This document shows positions 15,760 through 63,085 of a DNA stretch of 64,000 nucleotides, one piece after another. Position 1 is the first letter of the stretch. Each line of letters opens with the position of its first letter. This stretch comes from Perna viridis (taxonomy: Eukaryota). The translations under genes and the position numbers were made by a program. The notes below the pieces were generated by a model, which was not told the origin of the DNA, did not search any database, and saw only the letters and a program-made list of their open reading frames with translations. The stretch covers positions 21,328,001 through 21,392,000 of the forward strand of contig CM074511.1 of assembly GCA_037379345.1 (NCBI GenBank), in the 5' to 3' direction.

Positions 15760-15885
15760 GAGTTATCGTTCGTATCGCTCAATGTTTTAGGGTACCGCGA
15801 CCGCTAGACGGAGCTTTACACGTTGAAATGCAGTGTAGTGTTTACGTACAGCACACATGTAGTCAAAAATCAAGCGACTTTAGAG
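15760..15885 (+). promoter_or_regulatory. CpG-enriched promoter/5'UTR region of the ZNF292/RLF-like gene
   Basis: CpG-dense stretch (ggtaccgcgaccgctagacggagc) directly upstream of ATG 15886, in contrast to the CpG-poor gene body. Confidence 0.5.
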
Positions 15886-15996
15886 ATGGATTTCTCGGCT
15901 TTGATTGCCGATCTGAGGACGATTGCAAGTCGGTACAACGGCAAAGACACCGACCGCAATGTATCAACTGCTATGTATTGCGAAATGTTTCGCAAG
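15886..15996 (+). CDS. ZNF292/RLF-like exon 1
   Basis: ATG in a CpG-rich region; MDFSALIADLRTIASRYNGKDTDRNVSTAMYCEMFRK |gtaggt. Confidence 0.85.
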
Positions 15997-21900: not shown

Positions 21901-24900
21901 TAGAACCCAACACAAAAAGATGTTCATAACAAATATCTGAAAATCAGTTATTCTGTTGAAGAAGTATCAAAATGAAAAATACAAATGAGTGGAAATCATA
22001 AACAGAACAATACCATGAACACCAATAAGATATTATAGAAGAAGCAAATTGTACAAGAAAAAGCATGAATCCCAATATAAACTTGAGTGCTCTGGAAGAA
22101 TCAGCAGTTCCTGCTCTTTGCAAGACACCTGTCATGCTTTTAATATCTAATCATAAATTTAGTTGCTCTGGTTTTCTTATATTTGAGGAAAACTGCGCAG
22201 TGCACAGTTCATAAGCTGTACTAAGTATTTTTACTTTAAACTCTTTATATGAAGGAGTATTCAAATGTTTGACAATTAAAAGGAATCAGCTTTGATATTT
22301 TTAAGTAAATTTTGTATATTGTAGATATTACAGAAGGCAGAGAATGGAGTCTCTGAGTACAGTGACCAGATTGTTATTCTATGGATGACCCTATCTCAGC
22401 TTTGTAACACATATCAGACCTTGACACCATGTCCTGCAAGAGACAGTCTCTACGAACACATATTCCTGTAGGTATAATTAAGGAATTATTGCATATTACA
22501 TACAGGTAAATAGCTTCTTCTAAGTTTTATAGCAGTTAGTACATTTTGTAGATCATTACATTGTATGTTAATTTGTGACATCAAAGTGATAAAAAATACC
22601 TCTATGTATGTAGAGGATTTTCATTTTTGACTACTCACAATTGAGAATTAAGAGACTTTCCTGTTAAACTTAATATGTTTTAATGATAAAATACATAAAA
22701 AATTGCTGAATTGGTTAGTCTGTGTTAAGAAAAGAAATAATACTAAGAAAAAAATCTGCTACATGTATGTACAAATTTTTATTGTTGAAAGGGAAGTAAT
22801 TTTATACATGTACAGTTTTGTACATGTGTTAATGTAAATGACACATCTTGTTAAGTGCACTACTCAAGTTGAAACAAGTATTTGCAATAACACCTGTTTC
22901 ATAAAAAAATAATTTTGAATTCAGTCCCACTATTAAATAGACATCTTATCAGATGTTGCAAAAAATTGTCCTTATGTGGTTGAATCCTTTGCCTTTAACT
23001 ATAAAGATATAAAAATTAATAGTACTTTGGAGTACTTCAATATACATTTATACATGTTGTACATGAATGAGTGATCTTTATCTGAATAAATGTACTTCTA
23101 CGGAATCTATAAAAATGTTAGCTTTGCAGCTTACCTACTTGTGTGCCCAACTTTGAATTTGGTACAATGTAGGTGTTATTTAGGCATAATAGGATGCTAT
23201 GTTTTAAGAAATGTTTTATATAAAGAAATTTCTTGGAAATAAAAAGGTACATTTTGACCACAATTAATTTTTTGGTGAGTTGATTGATATTACGGGAAAC
23301 CAATAATTTTTAAGGATGGCCTTTCTAATTACTATTTAGTCTGCAAGTCTTAATTCTAACTTAATTCACGGTTTTAGCTAGGATTTTGAGGGCTTTAGTC
23401 ACTTGGGCATAGAGCACGAACGACATATTATGGAGAGCAGAATTTTGAAAATAGTCAGTAGTATCATAAACTAAAGACATAAACACTCTTAATATATTCA
23501 TTATAAGTTTACAGTTACAGGCATAACAATAAATACAATAAATATTACAACAAAATAACTTATTTTCTATAAGAAACCATGGTTTAAAATAAAATAGTTA
23601 CTATTAGAAAAATAGTAAAATAGAATTTTTTTTACATCATGACAAAGCTTTGATGCATTCAGTCTAAAAATAGCTACTATTTGACATAAGCTACTATTAT
23701 GATCACTAATAACACTCAACTAATAAGAGAAAATACTCCTGTCCTTTGCCAAACACCACACCTCAAAAGCCCTCTTCAACCTAAAACTCCTCAAATCAGA
23801 AGGATAGAGACAGATCTTTAGAAGAGAATTGATTGATGAAACCTTGAGCCCGTTCCTAAGATAGGTCTTGATCAGATAGTAAGATTACACAGAAACCAGA
23901 CAGGCAGAAAGGAGGCCACATTGGTATAGTCAACTCTGTAAGCGGTTGCTGCATGATATCTTACTGCTGGGTGGTAATTTTTTAGTGACCTTTGTCCCCA
24001 GATCATGAGTAGAATTGAAGATGTTCGTAATCATTGTGATTTTGTTTCAAGAAGAAAAGAGAATGATAAAATAAATATTTATCGTTGATTAATACTTCCT
24101 AACTGTCCGCTGTTGCGTAAAAATTTATTGAAATCCATGAGATGACCAGTCACACATCAGAGACATTGTTTTTGTGGTGCATTTAAATTTCTAAAAATAG
24201 ATAGCTATATATATGTTGCGAGGTTCGTGAAGGTTTTTTTTATATGGGAGTAAAATCGGTCGATATCCATTAAAGATCAAAATCATTTAACACGACTAAT
24301 CCTTAAAATAAGGATATATATTAGTTATATTTTTAACGTACTGAAAAGCAGTCAACTCGAGGCTTTTTTTGGTGGTCGAAAACGACCGGCTGAAGTTGAG
24401 TGAGAACCCTGGGATAATCTTTTGTAGTCCTAATGATCAAACGATTGATAAATTGTTGTTATTTTAAAGGATTATTATCGATGCACATATCAGGGATGCC
24501 AGGTTAACAACAATAAAATGTATTTCACACATGGTTGACCAAGCTTGGGGTCATAAACTTGTCAGAGCATAAGACAATTGACAGTTTTTGACAACATTTT
24601 TATTTAAGGTGACGAAAATTTATCTGAAATACTTTTTGAACAGAATTTTTTTATACACTTTTCAAATTTTAAGTGACGAAAATGATCTTAAACATTTTGG
24701 TCATTTATGAAATCCTTTCGTAAATGGCGAAAATGACGAGTACTAGCTAAATCACTGCTTAATTTTTGTTATTGAACTTTTTTTACATCAATCTATAATA
24801 CAAATGAACTACAAACCAAAGAACTTTTATGTATTATATAATCATTATTCACCTTTGATACATTAAAATGCAGTGCTGTGTTCTGTTCTTTGGTGTAACT

Positions 24901-27900
24901 CATTTCATTTTTTGTTTCACATATGCAGAGCTCATTTTACATATTTTTATTTTTTTATAGACTGGCACCATTTAAATTTTAATTGAAAAGCAGCATGGCT
25001 TACAGTTTTGTGTTTCATGGAGTCAAATACTATACCATCAACTGAAATTTTAATTCCTCCACTTTTCACTGTGGCGTCACCATTTTCCTCCTCTGTGACT
25101 CCATTGTGTCTCCACTAAATTAAAAACTGAGATAAACTTGCTTCATTCAAATACTTTATATTTATTGTTCTATATAAACATGTATCTTGAATGATTTTAA
25201 ACTTAAAGAATCCTTAAATGTATTATGTTATATACAATATAAACTAAAGAATTAAACTATAGGCATATTTAGAAATAATGACTCCACTCAAGTAGTCTCC
25301 ATTGCGAAAGAGTAATCAAGGGAACCAAGGTTATAGCGGCAATCAAATGAATGCAATCCAGGGACAAAGACCAGACATGGAAAACAGACATACACAACAA
25401 AGAACACAAAGTCACTAAAATCATACACACAAAGCAACAAAAGCAAATGAGGAACTTGGACTCCACTAAAAACTGGGAGCATGGACCAGTTGCGAAGAGT
25501 GGAGAAATTAAAATTAGTATTGACAGTAGTGTACATTGTAACAATTTTTTAATAAATTTTCTGTATTTCAGAGTAATGCATATAAATGTAGTTATTTAAT
25601 GTTATAAGTGTATCTATTGCTATGCTATCCATTTTTAGATTGTGTGCAAAGGTAGTGCTGAATATAAAATGGCAACAGCTCCCTGAAGATGACCAAGGAA
25701 AAGTGAATTTCTCCCAGACCATTGCCAACACCCATCAACACCTGGTCAACACGGGGTTTAAAAGGTTTGAATTGCTACCCCATTTGATGGAGAATCCTTG
25801 GACAGATCCAACGCTGAGTAAAATCATGTCAGGAGACGACAAAGATGAATCATCAGGGAGTGACACAGAAACAGAGGAAACTGAAAGAGGTAGTTTTTAC
25901 ATCATGATGATACCCTCTCAATAAGTGGATGGTATATTAGAATCAATTTATCCATCTGTCATTCTGTTGATCTCAAAATTAAGTTGCAATTATCTCTGCT
26001 CCCAGTGGATGGATTGATTTCAAATTTGGCATGTTGCTTTCTATAGCTATAGATGATGGTGATGCATACGTTTTAAGTGACTTTGGTTGCTATCTGACAT
26101 GGACTTCCAGTTTTGTGGGCTTGCCATTTTTCACTATATAGAATAAATGGGAGTATACCTAACACAACAACACGTGCAGCTTCATGTAAAATGATCAGTA
26201 GATAATAGAACCATATCAATGCACAGCAATAAAAACAATAAAAAGTGTTGTTTTCTTATACAGAGTCTTCTCCAGTTTGTATCGATTATCATTAGTGGTA
26301 GTCCAAGGTCTTGGACCCTCAATTTCTGTCATAAGACTTTCTTTCAAAATTTCAATTACCATGGTCTTTGACCTTCAACTCTTTTAATTGACACTTAATG
26401 GAGAACTTTTGATTTTTGTAAGTGGACCATTAATTTGAAATTAAGGAAAGTCCTGGTCTTGAATGTTAATTTGCACCCCTGTGTCTTTAATTATTTATGC
26501 CAGTTTTAATGCTTACTTTTCACAGAAAATCTAGTCTGTATTTTTTCAGTAAAATACCTACAAGATAGTTTAGTAATTGTTTATTGTAATACTCAAATTC
26601 ATTTTGGTAATTGTGGTAATAGAAATATTTAGCTGAGTGATATGTAACCTTTATAATTCATGCAAAAGAAATCTTTTAAAATTATGTTTATTTTATTACA
26701 ATATTTTAGGTATGAGATTTTGAACTAAATTTTTTTTTTTTTCAGAAAAAGAAAGAAAAATAAAGGAAAAAATGGATGAAATATCCAATTACATCAAGAA
26801 AGAGGACCCACTGATATTGAAACTGAGGGTAGAAATGTTAATCTTAGAAAACTGTGAAGATTTTGCTTCAAATTTATGCAACTGTCTTGTTAAATATTCT
26901 CCCTTTAAGGATGACTTAGATGTCAGAGAAATGCAGTTCATATTACTTCACAAACTGAACCAAATGGATAAACTCCAGGAAGAGGTAAGCATGAACTAAT
27001 GAAGGCTCATTCAATTTCCAGTGTGGATATGTATACATGTACCTTTTATCTTAAGAACTGTAGAAAAAATTAATTGATTCTTTTTGTTATATACTGATAG
27101 TCACTTCATCAGACCATAAACCAGACTTTCAATTTTTTGTTAATGTTTTACCCATTTCAATGAAATATTTGTGACTAGTTCTTCAAATCTCAAATTTAGA
27201 TACCCAATTAAATTATTTTACACTCAAAATGAACTAACTGTAAAATTAAAGCCCTTAAATACCAATATTATTCCTTGTACTTATACTCATTTTATTTTTT
27301 TTCACATGTTTGACAAGATTTTAAATAATTAATAATATGCTACTTGATTGCTGCATCAAAACTTGTATAACTAACATCTAAAGCCTATTGTTAACTTTTT
27401 TCAGTGTGAGCAGATAGTTTGCCACACCGGGATTAAATTGATCAACCGACTAGAACAAAAGGAAAGTAACCAAAAACTGTGTGTCAGACTAGTCCAGATA
27501 TTTCTGGTTCAAGACTGGATAAATCCTGATCGTACATGTTGTACAAAGGTTTGTTCTTACTTTTAAGCATATCAGTACATTAAAAAAAAATAATTTCTAT
27601 AATAACAAAGTTTAAATTATATTGAATACATATGTCTCTTAAAGTAATGGTCTGTTTGAGTGATTAGAAATACTTGTTATACCTGCAATAGTACATGATT
27701 AGTTGATCAACATTAGGTAAAATATAATTGATTGAATGTTTGTTTTAATCTGTAAAAGTGGGGGACACATTTAATTAATTTCATTGTTTTATGATATCAC
27801 AAAAACATGATTTTAAAGTACTATGCAAACATTAGTACATACTTTTAATTAAAAGTTTTTCACAAGAAGACCTTGTTAAAATTATTGTCACTACTTAAGT

Positions 27901-30900: not shown

Positions 30901-33900
30901 CAAGTTCTAGTCAGTTGCCAGGTTGGTCGAGTAAATCTCCATCAGATTTAACCAAAACATCTCATCAGCCTAGAATTATACCTCACAGAACACAGCCACA
31001 AGTCAAATCTCCTTCTACATTATCACATGTCCAGCAATCATTTGGTGGAAACCAGGAACCCAACTCAAACATGTCACAAGACAATAGTGGACAAATAAAA
31101 AACTTTTTAACTCCAGTAGTCACACAAACTCTTCCAGCTAGGAGAAGTAGACAACCATCAAAGGAAGAGCTGCAAAGTATTGTTGACTGGTTACAAACAG
31201 GAACTGAGGATGCTAAAATTAAACCATCCAATTTGTCTCAGATAATTGTTTCTAATGATGCTAATGCTGCTGTTTCAAAGCCAAAAAAATCTTCAACTGT
31301 TCAATCTGGAAATCATTCACAATATGTTACAGTTGGATCAAGCCCTAGTCAAGCATTGCAAAATACAAAGAAAAGTCAGGAACAGCTGAAAATAAAAGAT
31401 GAAAAATCTAAAAACTTTGCAAGTCAAGTGATGACCAAAGTTGGTATAAGACCTGGAATGTCACAGGAGGAGATCAACATTGCAAGAATTAAGGAAATAA
31501 TGCGACAGCAACAGGAAGCTGTTATGAAAGAAAAACAAGAAAAGCCTACTAAGAAGAGTCCAAAAACTTCTTCAAAGGGATTTTTGCTAATTCCTGGATC
31601 AGCACACACCGTTATGCAAGCTAAAATGCAAGGAGACAGAACAAAAATGTTACAAGACAAAATGAAAGGTGTGCAAAAACCTAGTAAAATTAAACCTTTT
31701 TCACCTGAAAATAACAGTATTTCTCAAGGTAATCTCCAAAGTACTGTGTCAGTAGGCCAAAATTATGTCAATCAGATGATCCAATCGGCTTCTCCACAAT
31801 CCATACGATCTGGAGTCAGTCAGACCGCTATTGTTCCGAGTGATACGTCAAAAGTGGCCAAGTTCAAAGAGTTTGACATTCAACATGCTTTACAGTCTCT
31901 GTCAAAAGTTCTTGACAAGTCTTCTAATGTACTTTCTCAGAATCCAGCATTACTTGGCAAATCAAAAAAGGAGGAGATGCTTCAAAGACCAGCAAGACCA
32001 GCTTCAGCAATGCCAAATCTCATGGCTATCACAACTTCTGTTACTACTGCTTCTTATACTAAGCCTGTACAAAATTCAGTATTGGAAAGAGGTATGCCAT
32101 CTGTGCAAAAACAACCCAGCCCAGAATTGCCAGTTGAAACTTCTTCTTACCAGTTACTATATTTAGGACAAATAAAAACTTCCAAGTCTAAGGAATCTTC
32201 TGAACAAGTCAGTAGAACACAAACTGAACAAGCAATAGAAGTAATTCCAGAATCTGTGCAAAATTCGCAAGTGAACTCCACTAATGTAATGAAAGTTGGA
32301 AGTCAAGGTGTAAGTTTACCTAATCATCAAATTGTTGCAAATGCAGGAACTCAAAATATTTTGTCTGCAATGTCAGAGAATGTTTCACTGCAAGGAGTAG
32401 GTGCTTCAGTTTTAAACCCTCCCAGTGCTACTTTGCAAACAGTAAATCCTCAAGGTTTAATAATGGGGACTCAGCTTGCTCAGGCAGGTTCTGTGCAAGG
32501 AAGTGTGATTCAGACATTGACTCCTCCATCAATGACACTTTGTACCCCTAGTGCCCTGCCTATTCAAGCACAAGCTGTTCAGAATATAGCTGTACAAGGA
32601 ATTACAGCTGAGTATCAACCATTGCCACTTAATTCAATAGTACAAGGACCAAATAACCTCAATCAAGGACAAAATGTGCTTGGACAACAAACATTGATTC
32701 AAGGACAAAGCTCTTTTGTTCAAGGACTTTTACAAGGTCAAAATACACTGATTCAAGGACAAAATACTGTGATTCAAGGACACCAAACATTTGTGCAAGG
32801 TCAAAATGCAATGGTTCAGGGCCAAGGAATAAATATTCAATCTATTCAAACTGGACAAACTTTTGGAATACAGGGTGTAGCAAATCAAAACAATGTGTTA
32901 CCTGTAGTGCAAGGAGTGAACTTTCAAACACCTTTAGATACAGGTCAACCAACATTTGTGCAGCCCAATAGTCAACAGTTTGGACTAAACCCTGGTACTC
33001 AACTCTTAGGTGTAAACACCTTACATGTACCTAATGGAACAGCTAATTTAACTATAGAAAGAATGCAACCAAATACTACTGTGACTTTTACAAATCCTAC
33101 TGTGGTTATGTCAACAGAAATATCAGCTTCAACTACAGCTTTGGCTCTTAACAATCAAAATGTCATTCAAAATGTGAATACCACTATTATCCCACAAAAT
33201 ACTGTTCCAATTGCAACGAATGCAATATCATTTGATTCAAACAATACTGTTCTTGGCAATACCATTTCACCAGCTTTTTCTCTGATGCAGCCAGTTCAAC
33301 CAAGTCAGCATCCAGGCAATCTTTTAGTTCAGAATAGTAACACTTTAAATCACAACTTAAGCCTTACTAGTCATGTCACTGTAATGCAACCTTATACTGC
33401 TCAGCCAATAAGCACTAGTCTTTCATCTCCAAAACCTGTGAAAATATTACCAAAAACACCCGTTTTTGTAGGACCCTTTAAGCTAATAGCAGATTCTAAT
33501 AGCACTACTTCAACATCCCAAACTGATGTTCAAGGGTGTTTAGTTCCAACCACTTCACCGACGAAAATGAAACCAATTCCAGCATCTAGTCTTTCTCCAC
33601 TGAAAACGAGTCAACCTTGCAGTGTTATCAACACTTCACAAGCATCTTCATTTGATAAACTGTTACTAGAACATTTGGTTAGTGCTAAAGCATCTATTTC
33701 TGAACAAGAAAAACAATGGCAATCAGAACTTTCAGATAATGGCACAGAAATTGTAAGAAGAGTTGAACTAAGTGAGTTACAGAAAAATACTCTAACAGAA
33801 AGTGAAAACTTGAATCAGGAATGTGCAATTCCAGCTAAATCAGATGAAGGTCATCTTTCTTTATCAGGCCATCCTTCAAGTAACATAGATACAAATTTAG

Positions 33901-36900
33901 AAATGTTAAACTCAGAAGGCTCTAGTTTGCAATCTATTGATAAGCCTGCTATGGATCCATTGTTAACTAGTGCAATACCATCAATATCAAATGGGAAAGA
34001 TGTGAATATAGTTGACATTCATATAACTACATGTAGCAAGAGTGATGAAAGTACATTAGAAAGTCAAAAAGATGAAACACCTGCTGAATCAGCAGCTCTG
34101 AACACCAATATTTCTGAGGGTACCACACTTCAAAAAACAAGCTCAGAAAAACATTCAAATTTTCTGTCGGATACTACTCAAGGAAACTTTCTGAAAGGCC
34201 TTAATCAGTTTAAAGAAAGGCTGGCTAGTGCAAAATTTCCGTCTATTGAAACTAAGGGTATTAGTGAGAGTTGTAGTACTGTAACTGACTCTGAAATAAT
34301 GGAAGTTAGTTCAAATGATAATGTGAATGAAGAAAGTTCTTTATTTAAACACAATGTTGCACTTCATAATACAGATCAAAGCCATGTTACTTATTGTGAA
34401 CATGTTGGAAAGAAGATCAATGACTTGTTACATCAAACTAACTCAGAAGCAATTCACAAGGATCAAGAACTAGACCTACCATTGCATGCCGATACTGAAA
34501 AACTAGACACTTTAATTATAGAGAATGAAAAGATATCCACGCAAACCAGGAAAAATTTCAATGATGAAAATAAAACAACGGACATTATCGATTCTCCTTT
34601 AGAAATTGACAGTAAAATAATAGACAAAGTTGAAGAGCTAAATCAAAATCAGACTTTAGTTTCTAATGACACTGAGGTTGTAAACCATCTACAAAATGCT
34701 TATAGTAGTAGTGAAGTGGGAATGGAACCAGAAGATAATCTAATAGAATCAACTAATGAAACACTGATTAGATCTGCTGAAAGCTTTGGTCATACAATGG
34801 AAAATCGTATTCATCAGTTAATCAGCTTACACGTATCTAAATCTGTAGAAAGTGATGCATCTTTGAATCAAATATTAGATTTGAAAAAGGATAATGTTAG
34901 TTCTGCTGACTCAACTGATAAAGGAAATGAATTGTGTTCAGACAAAGAAGTAGAGAAGACAAATGTGGAAATTATTGAAAAAGTAGAGCTTGCAGAACCT
35001 TGTGATGATTTAAACAACATACAAACTCTGAAGATAGACACTGTTGATAAGCAGTCAGATATTCTCCCTCAAAATTCTAATTCAGAAATTCAAAATAAAG
35101 AACCATTGGAAGCTGAATCAAGTAAACTAGTTTTGGGTCTAGTGGATTACTCAGAAACTTCAGATTCTGATGCAGTTATTGATAGTAACATTGACACTAG
35201 GCGCACAGTTGGAATTGTAGATTACCCTGAAAGTTCTGATTCTGAATCATCTGAAAATGGGACTGATGTTTTAACTAAAGACAGTAATCTCAGTGAAATG
35301 CATGAAGCTTGTTCCAAAGAAGATCAACACCAGGATGTCATAAATAATTGTTTGCCAAGTGTTAATTCATCAGTTGATTCTACAGTTCCAGAATCAAAGG
35401 TTAGAATAGTATTTGTATGTGCCTATACAAATGTATGTATGATGTCTGCATAAATATATTTATAAGTAGTCTTAAATCAATAAATGTAACCTACTTTAGT
35501 TTTCATCACATTCAAACTAATTACTTAATGAACACAATGATGTATTGAAGTTGAATAGCATGATTGAAAGAGAAATATGTTACATACATATGTATGCAAA
35601 GTCGTCAAATAGTATTAAATTAAAAGATGAGTTGAGTACAACTAAATTTAAACTGAAAATCTTAAGAAGCCTGAATGTTCTTGTTGATAAAGAACATATG
35701 CATGTAATAAAAGGATGAGTAGTAGTAAACGGTTAACTTGTCTGATGCTATTAATTTATGTACAATGTACTTGTTAGGCTGTGCTCTCCATATGTTCATT
35801 TTTTTTGTTATTTTTTACAGACCATCATTGAAGAACCTAGTCAAGATGAAAAACTGTCTGAGAAAAGTCAGTTGGAATATCTTCCAGAAGTTATTAATCC
35901 TACAACTCCTGATGAACCCGCCTCTTCCATTGAAGTATGTTTATATTCCTATACGCCTGTTTTTCTAGACGGGACATATTTATGGTATACTCTCTATTCA
36001 TCATTCACATAAAACTTAAAAATGCTGCCACTAATTTTTGTGAAACTTTGTTGCATTGTTTTTATTGGTGTGAACTCTCTTTCTTGATTTTCGTCTCTCT
36101 GGTGACACGTGTTGCAGAAGGTAAGATTAAGGTACTACTTTTCTGGCATCTTCTGTGTTAATATTGGCATTGTGGTTCATGTTAAGATTTTAATGTTAAG
36201 TTAATTGATTAGGTCTATCTGATATGAACCACTCATGCAAGGTCAATGATATTCGTTACACATTTGCATAAAAATCACTTAATCACAATTGAGAGTATTT
36301 TATTTTTTTATTTTTCATACATACTTCCTTACATATTGATATTAAACGCTATGTTTATGGTCACATACCATCCTCTTCTCTCCATATTAAGAACACAACA
36401 ATGCAAATTTTTGTAAAAAATCATTTCTGTTAGAAGGAAATGTAATAAACATTCTAAAACCTGTATTGCAGCTAATGTGGTCATGTAAAAAATCAGGAAA
36501 TCTTAAATTTAAAAAAATAAAAAAAAAAGGGGGCGGTAGTATTTTTGATGGGCAGGCCGGGATGAAAATCCATCAATATATTTTAATTGGCCTAAGCCCC
36601 CTTTCAATTTTTAAAATTTGATTTTATGATTTAGTTATAAACTTAGTTCAAAATTAAGAGTGAATTTGAGAGTTTTTAGACTTACTCGGCAATGGTTGCA
36701 CTAATTTTCATGAAACTTTGGAAAATGGTTTTTGCCCCAACTGTTTAGGGTTCAACCTAGTGCTTGGGGAAATGTTTTATTTGGTCATTTTATTTATATT
36801 TGATTTGCTCATGAAGACACATTTTTCTTGAAAGTGTGGTTTTATAACACTATAGCAGGGTAAATACTAATGCACTTCCCTTTTGTATGTGTAATTTATC

Positions 36901-39900
36901 AAGAATTGTCTATATAGCCAACCAAGATGATTTGTTAGCAAATGTTTTTCAAATTACTTCCCTTAGATAAATAATCTATTTCCAAAGAGGTCTTTATTTT
37001 ACAAGAAAATTAAGAATTTTAGCTTGCAACACTAAAAAATTATTGTTTTACAATACATTTATCTATAAGCTATTTTATTGTAGAACTTGTGTAGGTATAA
37101 TTGTACATTTACTTAAAAAGAGTAACCAATAGATAACACGCTGTTTATATCATACTGTTTGTAATAAGCATTTGAAAAATATTTGAATGTTGAAATAAGG
37201 AAAAAGGAAAAAGGATTTTTGTTAGAAGTAATGAATTACTTCTAATCTTCAACAGATGTTTCTCCATTATAATGATATCTAAACTTTTATGTAGTCAGGA
37301 TTAATGAAGGTTTAAGGTCAGGTTATGTTAGTATGGGTGCATGTATAAGTAAAGGAAACTGAAATAAGTTAAAACTTGACTATTGTTAGGCTCAATACAA
37401 AACTAACAAAAAAATAGAAAAAGTGCTAGCAATACTCCCCAAATTGATACCTCTGTTCCTCCATTTGATAACGTGCACCTTTTATCCAATGACCTTGAAA
37501 ATTGAGAGCCTTGAACAACCTATGTTACAAATTTTATCAAAAGAAGTTCTAGAGAGTCAACAAGCATATGACATACAGTCTAAAAATATTCATTCTTTTC
37601 TAAATTGATGGTATCCTTTATTAATATCCCAGAAGACATTCAGATTAAAATATAAAACATGAGGTGCACATCTTAAATATTTATTAAGTATTATGTGAAA
37701 GTTTCATTAAACTGTAGTTGCCTTGTGACCCTGATCCTTGGGTTTGTCACCTGTATTGCTCGGATGTCCTTCTTGGTTACTTGAATAATGTATGATGACT
37801 CACATTTTAAAAATTGCAATAATGGTAACCACATTGTATAACCAAAGCTATGTGATAACTTATTGGTAAAAAATGGTGTTTTTGTAACCAAAATGGTTTT
37901 TATGAATCCAATATGTCCCTTATTTAAATTTTAGAATAAGGGTCATGACCTTTTTACGGTCCTTCGTAGATTGGCAGCTACGATTTAACTCTATACAGTG
38001 GTATTGGAGGACTTGTACGCAAGAGAAGGGAACCGTGTATTCATTAAGGGAAAAGTTATGCAATGAAAACACCAAAGTTGTAGATATACATGAACCGTTT
38101 TTTTGAAATTCAACTCTTTATTAATTTTAAAGGTGAGTGTAAGGTTACTTATAGTTTCAAAAGTTACTTAAGGTGTATCATTTAAGGTTACTAACAGCTC
38201 GAATTGTCTGTGAATAAGATTTAACATATTTTTGTCTCTTTTTCAGGAAACTGGAATTGATAACAGTTATAACAGTGATTCCATCCCAGTGGCAGGGAGG
38301 GGCAAGAACAATGTTTCAGGGAATCTTGCAAGTGAGGATGAGATAGAGACACCAAGTGACACAGTAACTGAACCAGAAGTGAATGATAAACATGCCACAT
38401 TATATGTACATACTGAGATAAATGAGGATTCAGAAAATAAACTTTCTGACCCTGAAAAACCAGATAATTTTGGAACTGATGATGGAAATCTAGTATATAC
38501 TAACAACAGTTCAAATGAGGGTAAAACTATCTTGTCAGATCATATGGACAATGATTCTAAAATACAAAAATGTAGTAATGACATAGTAAATGAAGAATCT
38601 TTAAAATCTAGTGTGGTGGATGAGGTGATAATAGGTACAAGAGCTGATATTGGCAAATCAATTTGTGAAACTCATGTAAATGAGGAAGATGAAGAGAAGA
38701 GGAACAATGAAGAAGACCAGAATGCTTCTGGAGACAACTTGGAAACTGTGAAAAGTAGTTGTTTACCCAGTGATGCCTCAGAAAACAAGTTAAGCACACC
38801 TCCCAAAAATGACTTAGTTGCTAACTATAAAATGCTAATGGAAGAAATGTTGAGCCTGTCAGCTACCAAAAAAGGGACAGAAGCTCATGCTAGTGTAGAA
38901 GATCAGTTTACAGTCAGAAAAAGTTTCGGTTTTGATGATTTAGAAAAAACTGTGGAAGGGAGGAAAAATGGCATGAGAGAGTCATCAGTGCCAGGTTTTA
39001 GTATTTTTGCTGATGATCTTAACAAACTTCCAGAAAGCTGCTCTGTCAATAAGCTGCAAACAAGGAGCCTCCCTGATGATTGGACTCCTAGTGAATATCA
39101 AGTACTAGAAAGATCTCTGTCAAATGAGGAAAGAAAATTAAGACGATCTAATTCAGATATCAACATTGCCAATATTGACAATAACTCCAATGATTTTGAT
39201 ACTCACTCTGTAATATCAGACAGAGAATATCAGGAGAAATCATTGAATGCCATGCAAAAGGGTTTTCCTGGTGGGTTTGATATCCGTCAGCTACAATATG
39301 ATGGGAAAAGTTCAAATTATAGGATGACTTTACCTGCATTGAAAATTAGTAAGAGGAAACCTCAGACAGAAACTCATCTATTAACATATGGAGAATGGAA
39401 AAACAAAGATAGTAAAGTTGACGTAGTGAGCAATAGGAAGAGCCCAATAGTAATGAATTTGGAACAGAAAGAGCAACATGAAGAGCCGAAAGTAATATTT
39501 CCAGTCAAAGTTAAAGAAAAAGTTAAGGAAAAAGAGGGCCCTCCAAAATGTAAAATTTGCTTAAGAACCTTTGACACCATCAAAGCACTACAGCAGCATG
39601 TCATTCATCCATGTAGACCTGATATCAGAAAAACTGTCATGCAGTTCAAAGAATTAGATTATCGCACTGTATACACATGCAACTCTTGTAAAGTGTCATG
39701 TGAAACTGAGTTTGCTGCAAAGTTGCATTGTGACAACTGTACTGGTATAACAGGAAAGAGATCCCAAGGTTATAGCATTAATACGTTCTTCCGTTGCAAG
39801 ATGTGTGGGGAAATAATGAACTATCAAGTAACAGCTTTAGAGCATGTAAAAGAGAAATGTCTTACAGTGAAACAGCTAGAGAAAATAGAAAAAGGAAAAA

Positions 39901-42900
39901 ATGATAGAAGCAATAGCTCAAAAGAAGGAACTGTCTATGATAATGAAAATGAATCTAAAAGAACAGTAATCAAAAACAATGAAGTTGACGTTGATGAAGC
40001 TGAATTGCAAAAAACACAGGACAGAAGGGAAGATGCAGGTTCAAAATCTGAACCTCAAAGCACACAAGATAAAAATGAAGACATAGATGTAAAATTGGAA
40101 TCTAAAAGAGCACTAGAAAGAGACAAGGTCAAAGTTGATGTTTATTCCAAATCTAAAACATTGCAAGATAAAAGCAAAGAGATAGATGTTGAAAAAACCA
40201 AAGAGGTACATGAAGTTACAGAAAAGAACAGAGCTGATAGTATCAATAACTTGAAGGAAGGAATTACAAGTGAATATAAATTTGAAAGCACACAAGGAAA
40301 TAAGGAAGCAAAAGATCTTGAAAAGAGCAGAGAGGTGCAAGAAGTTTTTTTGGAAGATATGGTTGAACAAAATCAATGTGAAAAAGTTTCAGAGAAAAAT
40401 GAAGTAAACCAAGAATTGGATGAAACTTCCTGTGATAAACAAGAAAATGATACATTAGAAGATGAAAAGGAAAAAGACATTGATAATGATAGTATTAAAA
40501 GCTTTTCAACAGAGGCCTCAACTGCTACTATAGATGCTAGTGAAACTTCATCTATAAAAAGTGGTGATTCCAAACCAAGAGTGTTAAAACAGAAACAGTC
40601 TGCAAGGATTATTTCTAAAAATATTAAGAAAATGGGCAAACGAGTCATTAAGGCGAAACAATATTTTGGTGAATTTGAGGTTTCAGAGTTTGTAGAAAAA
40701 CAGGCAAAGAAAATGAATTTAAAGAGAAAGTTCAAATCAGGTAAAAGCCTTTCACCAAAATTGAGAAAGTCATTAAACAAGAAGTTAACTGATGTAAGGA
40801 AAAATATAAAAGCAAATCCTAAGTGGCATGATGATGAAAAAAGTTTGCAAGATTCATGCCAAAGTAAAATGAATAGCAAAGCGAAAAGAAATGTTACCAT
40901 TGAGAGAGTTAAGACTCTTCAGGCAGTGAATTTCACCAACAAGAACAATACAGACTTGATGAATTCTTTTATTTATAATAAGGATGGAAGAAATGTTTAC
41001 AGATGTCCAATTAAAGTTTGTAGAGGACCATACACTAAACCTAGATCAATGATGGAACATTTTGACAGCCGCCATAAAATTAAGTTGTACAAAAGAGTAG
41101 GAATCAGAATAAATTGTTTGCATTGTACATTTTTCTGTAATTCCCTAGAGAAAATATTTGAACATGCAGCTAGTCACCTTGTCAATATTGTAGTAGATCG
41201 TCCAAGTGATATTTCTTCAGTAGTTTTATTGAAAGTTTTGTCAATGGCTGAAAGGAAGGTTGGTAAAATGAGGCTCTCTGATGAGATGAATACAAATAAG
41301 AATACTGTAAGCAAGTCTGAATCAACAGTTTGCTCTGATAACACAGTTCTAGAGAAAAACTTTAAATCAGATATATATGAAAACAGTAAAGACAATTTCA
41401 GCTCTAAAACTGATGCCAAAAATAACTGTGTTCGTAGAAGTGCAAGAAAGAAAACTGATGGATTTTCAGTCTATAAAGACTATGAACTGCCAGGAATAAA
41501 AGTATCAAGTAGTGGTATTGGTGACAAAGATAAAACTGATCGAATTGTTGGTGATAAAGTAGATCGTGATCAATCTATCTCAAAGGTGACTAGATCCAAA
41601 AGGGGTGGTGTTAACAATGACGGTGTGACATTTAAATCTGAGGAAAGTCAAAACAAAGGGACTACAAATTCTCAAGGCAAAGATAACAAGGAAAAGGTAG
41701 AATTTAAGGAGGAAAGAACTGATGAGACAGTACGAGGTGAAAGACCAAATGTTATTTCAAATAGAGGTAGAAAAGGAAGGCTAAACAATATTGATAATCA
41801 TGATCAGTCTGAGGAAGGAGCTCAAGAGTTCAATAGTACTACATGTAGGCGTAGTAGGAGGAAAAGGCATCATAGTGGAGAGAGTACTGCAAGTAAAGCC
41901 TCGACATTTGAAGACTCTAAAAGTGACATATCTGAACTTGATGCTTATAATCGACATCATAGGGTTAGGCACGTTAGTCATGAATCAAATTCAAGCAAAG
42001 CCTCAAAAGACATTAAGATTGAGTCTGAAGTTCATCACAATCACAATACCAGAAAAAGAGAGCATAGCATGGAATCCACTGCTGATAAAGGAGTATTTCA
42101 AAACAAGAAGACAAAGCCAAACAATTCATCAGGATCTGATTGTAAGGATGCAGACAGTGCAGACAAACAAACAAAACTACTGAATAAACGACGTAGGGGC
42201 TCAGATCTTAAACTATTAGAAGAGAACAAAGAGCTTCTTGAAAGGCAATCTAGAAGACAAAATAGCATTTCACAACCAAAAGAAGATGAGCAGGATGGCT
42301 ATTCAGTCATGCATGTCAGTTCCAGCAGCTGTAGTAAGAACTCCAAAGATTTGAAGTCAAATAAATTAAAGGATGATAAACATCGGAGAGGTCCTGATTA
42401 CTTACTCCTACAGGAGAATAAAGATTTAATTGACCTGAAGCCTAGAAATAGATCAACTTTGAATGCTAGGACAAAAGGTGACTGTAAAACAGTGTCAAAT
42501 CAATGTAAAATTAATTCAAAGAAAAATGACCTGGAGAAACCAGTAGAAAACAAACAAAAAACAGTAGATGGAGGGAAAGAGTCTCAAAATCCATTTCTTG
42601 AAAGTTTCAAGAAATTTGTTGGAATCTCAAAGAAACCATATTCAAGTACAATGAAGAGTCTCAAGCAGGGAAAATCCAGCAAACTAAAGTCCAAAGCTAT
42701 TCTTCACCAAAAGAAGCGACATTTACGCAAATCAAAAGAATTAAAACAAGAAAGAGATACTAAAGAAGCAGTTAAGTTGGCTAGTCATATGGTTAATGTG
42801 ATGGATGTTGTTGAAATAAAGGACTTTAGGAAAAATTCATCTGGTAACAAGAAAGTAGAAATTATTGATTTGACTAGTGAAACTGGAATAAGGAATGGAA

Positions 42901-45273
42901 AGGAGGACACCTCAATGAATTCCTCAAAACGCACTACCTCAAATAGTATGAACTCTTCATTTTTAGATAGTTTTCTTGCTCATGTCAATATGAACCACCA
43001 GACATCAACTAAAAAATGTGGCAGTAAGTCGAAGTCCAAGAAACAAAAAGCTGGCATTAAAACTCAGGGCAGGTACAGTAAATTGTAGTTAATTTAATAA
43101 GAAATGTCCATGTACATAATTGAAGTGTGAGAAAATCAGTCTTCTTCCCAGGCCTTTATAGCGCTGCTCTTTGCAGCACTATGATTTCTTAAAACAGTGC
43201 TATCAGTAATTAATTTTTGTTAGAATGCACTATGGGCCCTGTGCTATAATTTCGGAGGAAGTTCATAAGAGCTGTGATATGCCAGTAAGCACTCTGCTAT
43301 TTAAAAATTATGGGGAGAGCACTGAAAATAACAATGTATCATAGACTTTGTTATTGTTATTGTATGTTATGGAACTTAAATTTGCAGAATAAAAAAAATC
43401 CTAATGTGACTTGTACTTACAAAAGAAATGATCCTCTTTATTAAAGATGCATAAGTTACAATTGTATGATCACATTCTTAACCAAATGTCACATGTAAAT
43501 ATAGCTTATAATATTTATCACGAATATATATATATATAATGAATTAAGATAATGCTTTAACCAATAACAAGTTTTTATTTACTTTTCCACAGTTTGAAGA
43601 AGAAAATTGGTAAACAGCAAATTGCAATGAACACTTTAAAGGAAAAAAAAGCAGAAACATCCAAAAATAACTTTAAAAGATCTTTAAAGCATGACTCCAA
43701 AACACTAGTTAATAGCTTTGACAAAAAATGTGCAGATGACAAAAAAGGAGCTGGAGTAAAAGAAAAGGAAACATCAGAACCAAAAAAGTCACTCACTTCA
43801 TCTAAAAAGGCAGATGAAAAAAAGTTACCAGGCAAGAACACAGTGTTTAAAGCACACAGGCCTTGTAATACCACAGATCGTGGGGAGGAGAAGTCTTTTT
43901 TCAATAATTCACATTCCAATGACAAATATTCTGATAATGGTGATGCTCAAAATGTCAAAAATCAGGATGTGACTGTTTTCTGCACTGGAGACAAGGTGGT
44001 TCAAAAGGAATCAAGGACTTTTTTTGACAAGAAAGATCTCGAAACATCCATGGATGATATGCAAAAGACAACACGTGTTGCTGGGGTTGATAAAGGTACA
44101 GGTAATACTAAATCAAAAGGTAGTGACACAGCATTTCAAAACTGCTTCATGTCGTATTTAGGCTCAGAGGAGACCACAGATGACTCCCAGAAGGATAGCA
44201 AAGAACTGAATGAAAAAGTGTTGTCACGTCAAAAGTCACCATTTAAATGGGACCTTGATGAAGAAGATGCTGATACAAAATGCAAAAATGAAATACCTCC
44301 AAGTAAAGATAGTAGTAAGAAATCCAGTCATGATATGGTCGACATAACTTTAGAAGATTCAGGTTCTAAAAGTCACAAAAATAGTGAGAAAACAGACTCT
44401 CAAACAGAAAATGAACTGTTAAAAAGTGCTGCTTCTGCTTTTACAAACTGTTTATCATCAGGTGAAAATTCAGTAGAAGGAACAGTCAAAATTGGTCAAC
44501 ATGTTGATTTTGAAAAACACTTTAAGGAATTTATATCCAAGTCCAATGAGGAAAATGATAAGGGTTTGAGTGAATCTCAGCATATTAATAAAAAAACAAA
44601 ATATGAACATGAAAAGAAAAATGCAAAAGTTGGACCTTCAAATTCTGGTGCTAGAAAGGAACTTGCCTCAGAAACCAGTGAAAAGGTGGCGAAATCAGTT
44701 TCGTCAAGTTTGGACAATACTCAGTGTAGAACAAAACCAACATCAAAAGGATTTTTATCTGGAAGTTCTTTAAGGAATCGAATAGCAAAGTATAATCTTC
44801 CATATTCACAGTCGAAACAAATTAGTTCTAAACAATTTGTAGTAAAAAAGACAATGGAGAGTAAGAAGTTAATTCCTATATCTGAATTAAATGTTCTTAA
44901 CTCCCAAGAGAGTTCAGGTAAAAACAAGCCATTGTTGCATGACTGTACAGTGAAAGATTTATCAAATTCAGATAGCAAAACATCAGTGTTATCACAGCGT
45001 AAGTTACCACCTAGAGATCAACATCGTGTCAGACATATGTATCATGGAGGCAAAGTTTGGCAAATAGGTCAAGGTTCAGTGTCCTCAACAAACCTAGCAA
45101 GTCCTTGTAAAAACTTGTCTAATACTCCATGTGATGACCATGATAGTGGAAAAGGGAATGAAAGCTTTAAGGATGGTGAGAAACACAGTCGATGGAAAGC
45201 CAGGAAATCATCACCAAAAAGATCAACATCTGGTGAAAATGAACTCAAGGAAAAGAAAGCAAAACCATCTTAG
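15886..45273 (+). CDS. ZNF292/RLF/ZNF654-family-like zinc finger protein, about 4457 aa; join(15886..15996,22325..22467,25639..25889,26746..26984,27405..27548,28072..28212,29676..35399,35821..35934,38247..43072,43593..45273)
   Basis: Ten GT-AG exons, all phases compatible, total 13374 nt. The N-terminal ~500 aa align by eye with the helical N-terminal region of vertebrate ZNF292 (YCEMFRK~YCQQLCQ; PWTDPTLSKIMS~VWKNPVLCTILS; EDPLILKLRVEML~EGPILLDMRIKHL; LTAFALNPT~LSEFLIEPT; LSWEDLYPVCQKFM~WDWKTLKRQCLALM). Five C2H2/C2HC fingers lie in exon 9. Confidence 0.85.
18780..19360 (+). mobile_element. degenerate RTE-clade LINE 3' fragment
   Basis: Broken frames give KYTYRGRIISDD..KDI, LKIFNSNVRP, LQKVEGFCNSCLCTIHEIFWPN, PKIAYHWTPPGKRELGRP. 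Confidence 0.8.
19871..20850 (+). mobile_element. HINE/Helentron-type non-autonomous element with internal ~140-bp tandem repeats
   Basis: 5' box (tttataaacccc...ggggttata) + tctgtctgtcc; three degenerate monomers ending aatccaaat..aaggtttt; 3' ggggtat, agtgag..ctcact stem-loop and ttctagtt end. Confidence 0.75.
20227..20627. mobile_element. ~400-bp TTAA-flanked MITE (copy 2, nested in a HINE tandem array)
   Basis: TTAA-GTAGC...GCTAC-TTAA; colinear with 7232-7634. Confidence 0.85.
21990..22137 (-). repeat. diverged copy of the same retroelement 3' region
   Basis: gtgctctggaagaatcagcagttcctgctctttgcaagacacctgtcatg is homologous to 49224-49275. Confidence 0.55.
22325..22467 (+). CDS. ZNF292/RLF-like exon 2
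   Basis: ttgtag| ILQKAENGVSEYSDQIVILWMTLSQLCNTYQTLTPCPARDSLYEHIF(L) |gtaggt; phase 0/2. Confidence 0.85.
23367..24757 (-). mobile_element. internally deleted hAT DNA transposon with transposase C-terminal remnant
   Basis: TIRs CACGGTTTTAGCTAG / CTAGCTAAATCACTG; flanking CTTAATT duplication; minus strand about 23885-23721 encodes YLIKTYLRNGLKVSSINSLLKI...SFRLKRAFEVWCLAKDR (hAT dimerisation-domain tail). Confidence 0.75.
25309..25489 (-). mobile_element. short 3'-end retroelement insertion, 7-bp TSD
   Basis: Same fixed end as the 11915 copy; flanked by TTGCGAA at 25302-25308 and 25490-25496. Confidence 0.8.
25639..25889 (+). CDS. ZNF292/RLF-like exon 3
   Basis: ttttag| LCAKVVLNIKWQQLP...ENPWTDPTLSKIMSGDD...ETER |gtagtt; phase 2/1. 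Confidence 0.88.
25905..26190 (+). mobile_element. degenerate HINE-type element
   Basis: tataccc...ggtata box, tccatctgtc, a monomer-like segment and a gggagtata 3' box. Confidence 0.5.
26746..26984 (+). CDS. ZNF292/RLF-like exon 4
   Basis: poly-T ttcag| (E)KERKIKEKMDEISNYIKKEDPLILKLRVEMLI...DKLQEE |gtaagc. Confidence 0.9.
27405..27548 (+). CDS. ZNF292/RLF-like exon 5
   Basis: tttcag| CEQIVCHTGIKLINRLEQKESNQKLCVRLVQIFLVQDWINPDRTCCTK |gtttgt. Confidence 0.9.
28072..28212 (+). CDS. ZNF292/RLF-like exon 6
   Basis: ttacag| DLIKLWIRHQYMADRDRTKFLENVWSIAKISSKTEQIGVLVTGLQKE |gttagt. Confidence 0.9.
28227..28840 (+). mobile_element. HINE/Helentron-type element with ~161-bp tandem monomers
   Basis: 5' tatcaccc...gggtata, cagtcagtcc; two monomers (ggcttgcaga at 28309 / ggcttgcgga at 28470, shared agttcaccatgataagttaca); 3' gtgagc..gctcac hairpin. 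Confidence 0.75.
28861..29475. repeat. dispersed AT-rich non-autonomous element, copy 2 (empty at the RTE site)
   Basis: Same orientation and colinear with 5752-6760, but lacks the 6194-6582 insert. Confidence 0.8.
29676..35399 (+). CDS. ZNF292/RLF-like exon 7 (5.7 kb; end of helical domain plus Q/S/T-rich disordered region)
   Basis: Inside the 1942-aa ORF; tttcag|TGT GGC ... GAA TCA AAG|gttaga. Confidence 0.93.
35821..35934 (+). CDS. ZNF292/RLF-like exon 8 (symmetric phase 0, skippable)
   Basis: ttttttacag| TIIEEPSQDEKLSEKSQLEYLPEVINPTTPDEPASSIE |gtatgt. Confidence 0.8.
38247..43072 (+). CDS. ZNF292/RLF-like exon 9 (4.8 kb; five zinc fingers)
   Basis: Inside the 1618-aa ORF; tttcag|GAA; fingers CKIC..HVIHPC, CNSC..HCDNC, CKMC..HVKEKC, CPIKVC..HFDSRH, CLHC..HAASH; donor AG|gtacag, phase 2. 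Confidence 0.92.
43137..43324. mobile_element. small MITE in ZNF292-like intron 9
   Basis: cagtcttcttccca ... tggggagagcactg imperfect TIRs; internal repeated gcac/gctat motifs. Confidence 0.55.
43593..45273 (+). CDS. ZNF292/RLF-like terminal exon 10 (K/S/E-rich)
   Basis: ttttccacag|T TTG AAG...; phase 2 matches exon 9; 559-aa ORF ends TAG 45273; AATAAA at 45650. Confidence 0.88.
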
Positions 45274-53184: not shown

Positions 53185-53968
53185 ATGGCAGGAAGTGATG
53201 TGCTTTACAATGAAAAGGAAATATATTTCTTCCAACAACAGGTAAGAAGAAAAGTACCCAAAAGATGTCGTAAAGCACCGGAGGAACTTCCAGAAAGTCT
53301 ACGTTTTGCTCATCCTAATCCTAAAGTAGCAGCTTATTTAGCAAGCAAGAACAGGGAGGCTCAACAAAAGCTTCAAGAACAGGACCTTTATGGGGATGGG
53401 TTAGGGAAGAAAAGTTTGTTGCCTAATATTAATCAAACGTTAACAAATATTAAAAATCGTCTAGATAGTGCCTTATCTAATGATGAAGATTCTCAAAAAT
53501 ATCTTTTTGAGGATTCTAAGAGCAACTCTTATACCATCCTCCAACAACTTGCCAGGTATTTATATTCATATGATAACATTTCAAATCACGTGCCAAAGAG
53601 CTTAGAATACCAGTTGATGTCAACATGGAGAGAACTAACAAATGATGTAATATATGTTCCAAGAGAATGGCAAACTGTAGAGATTAGGGAACAGTATTAC
53701 AATTCGTTAAGAGAAAATAACAGTGATGATGAAGATGATGATATAACAGGAGGTAGGACATCAGTGTTGGATAAAAACTCTGGTCCACCCAAGAAACCTA
53801 AGAAATCATCCAGTCGTTTAGGAGTCCCTGACATTGTAGAGGAAGATGGAAAACAAGAGGGCAAGTTGTCCGTTCCAAGAAGAAGTGATAGTCGAATGTC
53901 AACCATGTCCACGTCACGGAGCAGACTGGATGTACGAGGAAAAATGTCAAAAGATCATCGTGGATCAA
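53185..53968 (+). CDS. C3orf20-like first coding exon
   Basis: 278-aa ORF; acceptor ttgtag ends 53138; AGAATGG Kozak context at 53185; donor A|gtaagc. Confidence 0.85.
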
Positions 53969-63075: not shown

Positions 63076-63085
63076 GTATCCTTTT
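63076..63085 (+). other. U12-type (minor spliceosome) 5' splice site
   Basis: GTATCCTTTT exactly where the exon must end (in-frame TAG if read through); matches the RTATCCTTT consensus. Confidence 0.85.

What the first reader, a model, noticed from the sequence alone, without database searches (positions are those of the whole stretch)
15886..45273. Giant (~4457 aa) invertebrate ZNF292/RLF/ZNF654-like protein with a rearranged architecture
Seen: six small exons plus the start of exon 7 encode a ~500-aa helical region. About 2200 aa of disordered sequence follow before only five zinc fingers. Knowledge: the helical region aligns by eye with the conserved N-terminus of vertebrate ZNF292/RLF, and exon breaks appear to fall at equivalent places (FRK|ILQ, QEE|CEQ, CTK|DLI, QKE|CGT). 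In the vertebrate proteins the finger clusters begin right after that domain. Inference: this is a lophotrochozoan pro-orthologue in which the helical domain, not the fingers, is the conserved core. The separate ORFs hide that it is one gene.
Basis: partly seen in the sequence, partly recalled or inferred. Interest (0 to 1): 0.7.

Follow-up and report, generated by a model that had tools for sequence, protein, structure and literature searches.

The report
Giant mollusc RLF/ZNF292-family scaffold protein
A transcribed gene of a likely mussel encodes one predicted 4,457-residue protein whose helical front end likely belongs to the family of the human genes RLF, ZNF292 and ZNF654; it would act as a chromatin-regulating scaffold, and its huge size and five zinc fingers are the usual form of this gene in bivalves and snails.

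Summary
Ten GT-AG exons (15886-45273) give a stop-free 4457-aa protein. RNA shows junctions 7-9 spliced and exon 6 joined to exon 7, and one 14.8-kb contig spans exons 7-10. The first 500 aa fold as an alpha-solenoid and are 87% identical to Mytilus. Pfam TPR_Rlf passes its cut-off in 21 of 24 relatives, and the top ESM Atlas hit is ZNF292b. So the family call is right, and databases already apply it to relatives. 'Rearranged' is not supported: the order (helical domain, then fingers) matches vertebrates. Only the spacer varies, from 96 to 2284 aa. The giant form is general in bivalves and gastropods; 38 of 44 long members have five fingers. Added here: a fixed finger layout (three CCHC-type, then two C2H2), a repeated FxxSFxx[FYH] motif, and finger-less annelid and brachiopod gene models. 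No vertebrate sequence could be fetched, so intron equivalence with ZNF292 and finger homology are untested. The scan's earlier notes held nothing on this gene.

The parts
15886..15996 (+). exon 1 (coding part), ATG, aa 1-37
   Evidence: 95% identical to Mytilus P0001; CpG o/e 1.27 at 15700-16200 against 0.33 for the window
22325..22467 (+). exon 2, aa 38-84, ends in phase 2
   Evidence: 91%
25639..25889 (+). exon 3, aa 85-168, ends in phase 1 inside an acidic insertion
   Evidence: 95%
26746..26984 (+). exon 4, aa 169-248
   Evidence: 85%
27405..27548 (+). exon 5, aa 249-296; the Pfam TPR_Rlf match begins here (Mytilus residue 249 = profile position 2)
   Evidence: 94%
28072..28212 (+). exon 6, aa 297-343
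   Evidence: its 3' end is joined to exon 7 in 4 of 4 runs
29676..35399 (+). exon 7 (5724 nt), aa 344-2251: end of the helical domain (to 30146), then a polar low-complexity spacer
   Evidence: (TPR_Rlf 13.8 bits on this piece alone, below cut-off)
31140..31205 (+). short motif EL.SIVDWL (aa 832-853), kept in mytilids, scallops, oysters and an ark clam
   Evidence: 7 of 27 proteins
35821..35934 (+). exon 8, aa 2252-2289
   Evidence: both junctions seen in RNA
38247..43072 (+). exon 9 (4826 nt), aa 2290-3897, holds all five fingers
39543..39860 (+). fingers 1-3, CCHC type, starts 43 and 39 aa apart
40998..41177 (+). fingers 4-5, C2H2 type, starts 37 aa apart
42594..42989 (+). copies 1 (42594-42623) and 2 (42960-42989) of the FxxSFxx[FYH] motif
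43593..45273 (+). exon 10 (coding part), aa 3898-4457 and stop; motif copies 3 (44134-44163) and 4 (44509-44538), F.WD[LV]D (44242-44265), YHGGKVW motif (45025-45090)
45274..46640 (+). probable 3' UTR; end approximate
   Evidence: X1 contig runs 1238 nt beyond 45400; candidate poly(A) signals at 45468, 45650, 45805, 46239; contigs cannot fix an end

Best explanation
This is one transcribed gene, likely the single mussel co-orthologue of vertebrate RLF, ZNF292 and ZNF654, and its predicted 4457-residue product would work as a nuclear chromatin scaffold. Shown: splicing of exons 6-10 into one RNA, a conserved 500-residue front domain, five conserved fingers and conserved short motifs in otherwise fast-changing sequence. 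Predicted: the front domain is an alpha-solenoid. Inferred: the solenoid is the ancient protein-docking core that binds chromatin-modifying partners, as RLF is found with KDM1A/RCOR1, CBX5 and MRN. Also inferred: the fingers (no Kruppel linkers, three of CCHC type) give weak DNA contact or protein contact rather than long-site DNA reading, and the long polar linkers are elastic tethers carrying short docking helices such as the repeated FxxSFxx[FYH] motif. The long gap before the fingers is linker length variation, not a domain rearrangement.
For: Gene model and RNA. Full-length single-protein relatives of 3584-4676 aa from named bivalves and gastropods: 21 hits of 47 candidates; they match the model in exons 7, 9 and 10 as well. 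TPR_Rlf over cut-off in 8 of 9, 9 of 9 and 4 of 6 relatives; the three misses start inside the last third of the domain. Atlas first hit 'Zinc finger protein 292b' at 0.89 and 0.90, 190-191 of 256 features shared, TPR_Rlf on 46% of that cluster (one source of evidence). Source names: Elysia 'zinc finger protein 292', Pinctada and Owenia 'Rlf/292/654 TPR repeats'. AlphaFold2 model of the Mytilus domain: all helical, pLDDT 84.8, pTM 0.73. The tree recovers mytilid, pteriomorph and gastropod groups, with the model sister to Mytilus at 100/100. Fingers: 38 of 44 long members have five by pattern; in 27 of these the last ligand is Cys in 27, 22 and 27 for fingers 1-3 and His in 27 and 27 for fingers 4-5 (11 five-finger rows of a divergent clade were left out of the ligand count). 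RLF partners, DNA binding by some fingers only, and wide finger spacing: PMC4381397 sections 9 and 11.
Against: No vertebrate sequence was obtained, so there is no direct alignment, no tree with vertebrates and no intron comparison. Orthology as against looser domain sharing is inferred. The window's own exon 7 piece scores only 13.8 bits, below the cut-off of 27, and the joined protein was not scanned against Pfam. Residues 1-248 have no Pfam match. The family search of the genome missed this locus and gave one sub-cut-off match elsewhere, so the single-copy count is soft. The function is borrowed from mouse and human RLF; nothing here shows nuclear location, DNA binding or partners. Fingers 2 and 5 of the model score poorly against profiles of the same finger from other clades (7.9 and 1.6 bits).
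Confidence: 0.75

Rival explanations
1. The helical domain is shared with RLF/ZNF292/ZNF654, but the fingers were gained separately in molluscs and vertebrates. The ancestor was a finger-less scaffold, and only the domain is orthologous.
For: The Owenia (1049 aa) and Lingula (700 aa) models have the domain and no finger. Mollusc fingers are five, three of CCHC type, against 16 in ZNF292. No ZNF292-type finger family was listed for any relative in the Pfam scans; there were only generic C2H2 and weak ZNF451-pair hits.
Against: Both models may be truncated: Pinctada and Solemya models are also short and finger-less although their relatives are full length. The same order, domain then fingers, in both lineages is simpler to explain by descent. 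RLF and ZFP292 fingers diverged even from each other. ZNF654 is recalled to have about five fingers (recall, no call).
Confidence: 0.2
2. It is a sequence-specific transcription factor in which the fingers read DNA sites, as reported for ZNF292 fingers 10-12 at the growth hormone promoter; the helical domain is accessory.
For: Finger number and type are conserved in molluscs. ZNF292 is described as a promoter-binding factor (PMC13512819 introduction; PMC12329236 passage).
Against: No TGEKP linkers, finger starts 37-43 aa apart, and identity in fingers 4-5 drops to 13-16% outside mytilids while the helical domain keeps 38-60%. This is a matter of emphasis and does not exclude the scaffold reading.
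Confidence: 0.25
3. The locus is two or more genes, or the large ORFs are unrelated low-complexity frames merged by the reader.
For: Junctions 1-5 were not seen directly in reads; identity outside the domain and fingers is low.
Against: Spliced reads for junctions 6-9 and one contig across exons 7-10 with the expected length upstream; single annotated proteins with the same layout in many species.
Confidence: 0.02
4. The helical domain is an Integrator subunit 8-like module and recruits Integrator or PP2A.
For: INTS8 TPR clusters come next after ZNF292 in the Atlas, at 0.80.
Against: 0.80 is reached by a third of shuffled proteins according to the tool; these are TPR-clan neighbours. Fold searches gave only generic solenoids, best Z 11.6.
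Confidence: 0.05

Closest known systems
Vertebrate RLF / ZNF292 (Zn-15) / ZNF654; Pfam PF25580 TPR_Rlf
   Same: N-terminal helical domain; widely spaced fingers behind it; small 5' exons followed by a giant exon that starts near the end of the domain (human ZNF292: 8 exons, codon 387 already in exon 8).
   Different: 4457 aa against 2723; 5 fingers against 16; first finger 2224 aa after the domain against aa 542 in ZNF292; six small exons against seven; fingers in exon 9 of 10, not in the first giant exon.
Annotated mollusc relatives (Mytilus P0001-P0003, scallops, oysters, unionids, Tegillarca, Patella, Haliotis, Biomphalaria, Elysia)
   Same: Same domain, five fingers, 2835-4676 aa, shared short motifs; most already carry PF25580 in the database.
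   Different: Spacer 644-1073 aa in 8 named gastropods, 1271-2094 in 11 other bivalves, 2224-2284 in mytilids; gastropods spread fingers 2-4 apart and put the long tail behind them; motif copies 1 in gastropods and 2-5 in pteriomorph and unionid bivalves.
Owenia P0049 and Lingula P0055
   Same: TPR_Rlf at 70.1 and 46.8 bits; Owenia has motif-like helices at aa 536 and 581.
   Different: Short, finger-less models with a long insertion before the last helices of the domain; completeness unknown.

Membership tests
RLF/ZNF292/ZNF654 | N-terminal TPR_Rlf domain (PF25580) over the curated cut-off | tested here: met
   Met in 21 of 24 relatives, including three Mytilus proteins at 47.5-49.6 bits; P0001 is 87% identical to the model over aa 1-500. 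The window's exon 7 piece alone gives 13.8 bits; the joined protein itself was not scanned.
RLF/ZNF292/ZNF654 | Domain is an alpha-solenoid | tested here: met
   AlphaFold2 model of the Mytilus domain, 25 helices and no strands, pLDDT 84.8; generic TPR-like matches. A prediction.
RLF/ZNF292/ZNF654 | Widely spaced C2H2-like fingers C-terminal to the domain | tested here: met
   Five fingers in a 3+2 layout without Kruppel linkers.
RLF/ZNF292/ZNF654 | About 16 fingers starting soon after the domain (RLF, ZNF292) | tested here: not met
   5 fingers, first at aa 2724, against 16 from aa 542 and 16 in Rlf. So it is not an RLF or a ZNF292 in the strict sense; it is filed only as a family-level co-orthologue.
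RLF/ZNF292/ZNF654 | Fingers homologous to vertebrate finger clusters | not testable with these tools
   No vertebrate protein was retrieved.
RLF/ZNF292/ZNF654 | Shared intron positions and phases in the domain | not testable with these tools
   Model phases 0,2,1,0,0,0. Papers give only exon number and a few exon assignments. By recall alone, most junctions look equivalent, junction 5 may differ in phase, and human has one extra intron.
RLF/ZNF292/ZNF654 | Clade with the vertebrate genes in a tree; reciprocal best hit | tested here: inconclusive
   Atlas best hit is a ZNF292 cluster; the trees hold no vertebrate row.
RLF/ZNF292/ZNF654 | Nuclear, binds DNA and KDM1A/RCOR1-type partners | not testable with these tools
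   Shown for RLF in PMC4381397; not for this protein.
Kruppel-type C2H2 array factors | Tandem fingers 28 aa apart with TGEKP linkers | tested here: not met
   No such linker; starts 37-43 aa apart.
INTS8 | INTS8-type TPR profile or fold | tested here: inconclusive
   Atlas 0.80, a chance-level score; the fold searches on the whole 500-aa model single out no family.

The most novel reading that the evidence does not exclude
The RLF/ZNF292/ZNF654 family began as a finger-less alpha-solenoid chromatin scaffold, still seen in annelids and brachiopods, to which molluscs and vertebrates added different finger sets independently. The unstudied solenoid and the repeated FxxSFxx[FYH] helix are the real functional core, and last-exon ZNF292 truncations in patients would leave this core loose from its fingers.
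Probability: 0.15. Interest if true: 0.6.

Novelty: new variant of a known kind. Interest (0 to 1): 0.3.

Why it matters
RLF is a mouse epigenetic modifier and ZNF292 a human neurodevelopmental disease gene. The papers read here describe both by their fingers and do not discuss the N-terminal domain in the parts seen. The mollusc gene shows that this domain is the slowest-changing part and predates vertebrates, which marks it as the piece to study. Of 31 reported pathogenic ZNF292 variants, 30 lie in the last exon and most would keep the domain (inference). The conserved short motifs give concrete baits for partner searches. The family assignment itself is already in automatic database annotation, which limits the surprise.

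Tried and rejected
Vertebrate sequences: word-based searches with domain alignments gave 3 hits of 5145 candidates and 1 of 5191, none vertebrate. PDB sequence search gave only short repeats in designed armadillo proteins. Fold searches gave generic solenoids, best Z 11.6, with no INTS8 or other family standing out in the listed rows. The domain halves were not folded separately, so a match to one half could be missed. Complex prediction of the domain with one motif copy returned no verdict. A recalled likeness of the motif to a PRR12/QSER1 segment was not found in the one paper listed and is dropped. A recalled RLF/ZFP292-CoREST preprint was not found. Direction of spacer change: the short-spacer rows P0041, P0047 and P0048 sit unresolved at the base with long branches, so expansion in bivalves is likely but not shown; five gap labels are wrong through a fallback, and the values are used. 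The relaxed motif listing at the end had an offset error and is not used. No listed holder was on record as RNA. The bilaterian gene survey PMC7535936 does not mention the family in its text or 4 supplements. Earlier scan notes did not bear on this gene.
Full report
Gene model. The window holds three very long ORFs on the + strand. With six small upstream exons and one 114-nt exon between them, they join into 13,374 nt that translate to 4457 aa without an internal stop. All 9 introns are GT-AG and junction phases are 0,2,1,0,0,0,0,0,2. Acceptors carry 9-15 pyrimidines in 17 bases. CpG o/e is 1.27 around exon 1 and 0.19-0.25 in the giant exons, the pattern expected of a promoter and a methylated gene body (established knowledge of invertebrate genomes).

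RNA. Four runs were laid on 29600-45400. In the raw-read RNA run X21 (19% of the run read, 611 reads laid), first mates lie almost all on the - strand, which in most stranded libraries means RNA from the + strand. Depth falls to zero inside intron 8. Junctions 7, 8 and 9 are seen in 3, 11 and 4 reads. The 3' end of exon 6 is the loose end before exon 7 in 12 reads and in contigs of the three other runs. One 14,785-nt contig (X1) runs through exons 7, 8, 9 and 10, with 1073 nt before exon 7 (1027 coding nt predicted for exons 1-6, plus 46) and 1238 nt beyond 45400. A contig is not a single molecule, and junctions 1-5 were not observed directly.

Relatives. A search with the first 175 aa of exon 7 found 21 proteins among 47 long candidates, 3584-4676 aa, named from Mytilus (75-76%), scallops, oysters, unionids, Tegillarca, Patella, Bulinus, Biomphalaria and Elysia; 17 of 21 already carry PF25580. 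The HMMER scan gave 37 hits up to 6426 aa, including Owenia. Further searches added Pinctada, Solemya and Lingula. The model is sister to Mytilus in both trees (100/100), so the window likely comes from a mytilid. Its genome gave one match among 6 candidates; a Pfam search there missed this locus and gave one sub-cut-off match with a stop on another contig.

Family. TPR_Rlf exceeds its cut-off of 27 bits in 21 of 24 relatives scanned; the misses P0020, P0041 and P0047 lack the first two thirds of the domain. In Mytilus the match spans residues 249-433, that is exons 5-7. Exons 1-4 have no Pfam match, though they are as conserved and fold into the same solenoid. The ESM Atlas ranks a chordate ZNF292b cluster first for two queries (0.89, 0.90). 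INTS8 clusters follow at 0.80, a chance-level score. Fold searches show only generic solenoids. Papers give the human outline: 8 exons, 2723 aa, 16 fingers from aa 542 to 2410, all in exon 8, with gaps of up to about 500 aa. The plan of small exons followed by a giant exon is shared, with six small exons here and seven in human.

Architecture. Five fingers are found by pattern in 38 of 44 members of 2800 aa or more. In the 27 five-finger rows counted (11 rows of one divergent clade left out), fingers 1 and 3 always end in Cys, finger 2 in 22 of 27, and fingers 4 and 5 always in His. Profiles trained on 10 proteins from outside the tested bivalve groups pick the same-numbered finger for finger 1 in 5 of 5 bivalve proteins, finger 4 in 5 of 5 and finger 5 in 4 of 5 (not the model), but less well for fingers 2 and 3. 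The spacer from domain to finger 1 is 96-418 aa in three unnamed long-branch rows, 644-1073 in named gastropods, 1271-2094 in other named bivalves and 2224-2284 in mytilids. The order never changes. The model is therefore near the long end of an elastic linker and is not rearranged. The direction of change is unresolved because the short-spacer rows fall in a basal polytomy.

Short motifs. The poorly conserved regions (16-21% identity outside mytilids) hold islands. An amphipathic FxxSFxx[FYH] motif occurs four times after the last finger. The pattern was written after viewing some sequences, so it was retested on 32 proteins whose tails had not been displayed when it was written: 35 hits in 19 proteins against 0.37 expected from local shuffles. 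These rows are relatives, not independent trials, and some had been run. The 13 misses are one divergent clade, where looser versions appear in 3 of 4 checked, plus P0041 and P0047. Other islands are EL.SIVDWL (7 of 27), F.WD[LVM]D (13 hits in 9 of 27) and a C-terminal YH.GK[IV]W (6 of 27). No partner is known for any of them.

Mechanism. Mouse and human RLF keeps enhancers and CpG-island shores hypomethylated, co-precipitates KDM1A, RCOR1, CBX5 and MRN, and binds DNA through some but not all fingers (PMC4381397). By homology the mussel protein most likely works the same way: a solenoid that docks chromatin-modifying partners, a small finger set for chromatin contact, and long tethers with short docking helices. 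Every functional step is inferred. Identity as a family-level co-orthologue is about 0.9; the scaffold mechanism about 0.65.

Open evolutionary point. The Owenia and Lingula models have the domain without fingers. This may mark a finger-less ancestor or merely truncated models, as Pinctada and Solemya suggest.

Literature. Seen: PMC4381397 (passages, sections 9 and 11); PMC13512819 (passages, introduction, part 1 of 2 of the supplement); PMC12329236 and PMC11050278 (passages); PMC7535936 (term search of text and 4 supplements, no occurrence). Searches listed no paper on an invertebrate member; 49, 68 and 81 were loose, and the library lacks most subscription journals. Database names already link mollusc and annelid proteins to the family.

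Verdict. A real, expressed gene and a correct family call. The architecture is a mollusc-wide variant that appears undescribed in the searched papers but is not surprising in kind. Interest 0.3.

Noticed in passing
window 53161-54015 (+): 284-codon ORF (Met at 53185) that looks like a coding exon of the downstream gene; no Pfam match. A short ORF at 62813-63076 may belong to it; no Pfam match.
   Followed up: partly
window 15700-16200: CpG-rich stretch around exon 1 (o/e 1.27) against strong CpG depletion in the giant exons (0.19-0.25), suggesting a promoter and gene-body methylation.
   Followed up: partly
window 25840-26800 (exon 3/4 boundary, aa about 150-180): A 30-40 aa acidic then basic insertion in the helical domain is present in mytilids, oysters and Pinctada and absent in scallops, unionids, the ark clam and gastropods; low confidence in the model.
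   Followed up: no
P0030, P0033, P0039, P0040, P0042, P0045 (unnamed): A divergent clade next to the unionids has even larger members, up to 6444 aa, with 3-7 fingers and a different spacing.
   Followed up: partly
P0009 2402-2459; P0005 2571-2636; P0017 1776-1826: Weak, sub-cut-off matches of finger pairs to ZNF451 paired-finger profiles (PF23107, PF23108; best E 2.3e-5, 25.3 bits against 30).
   Followed up: no
G000:C4:19246953-19247090 (L002): Sub-cut-off TPR_Rlf match (19.5 bits, profile 173-218) with a stop inside; probably chance.
   Followed up: no
window 29600-45400: About 40 single-base differences and one 3-base deletion (44595) among RNA runs, consistent with allelic variation between individuals.
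   Followed up: no
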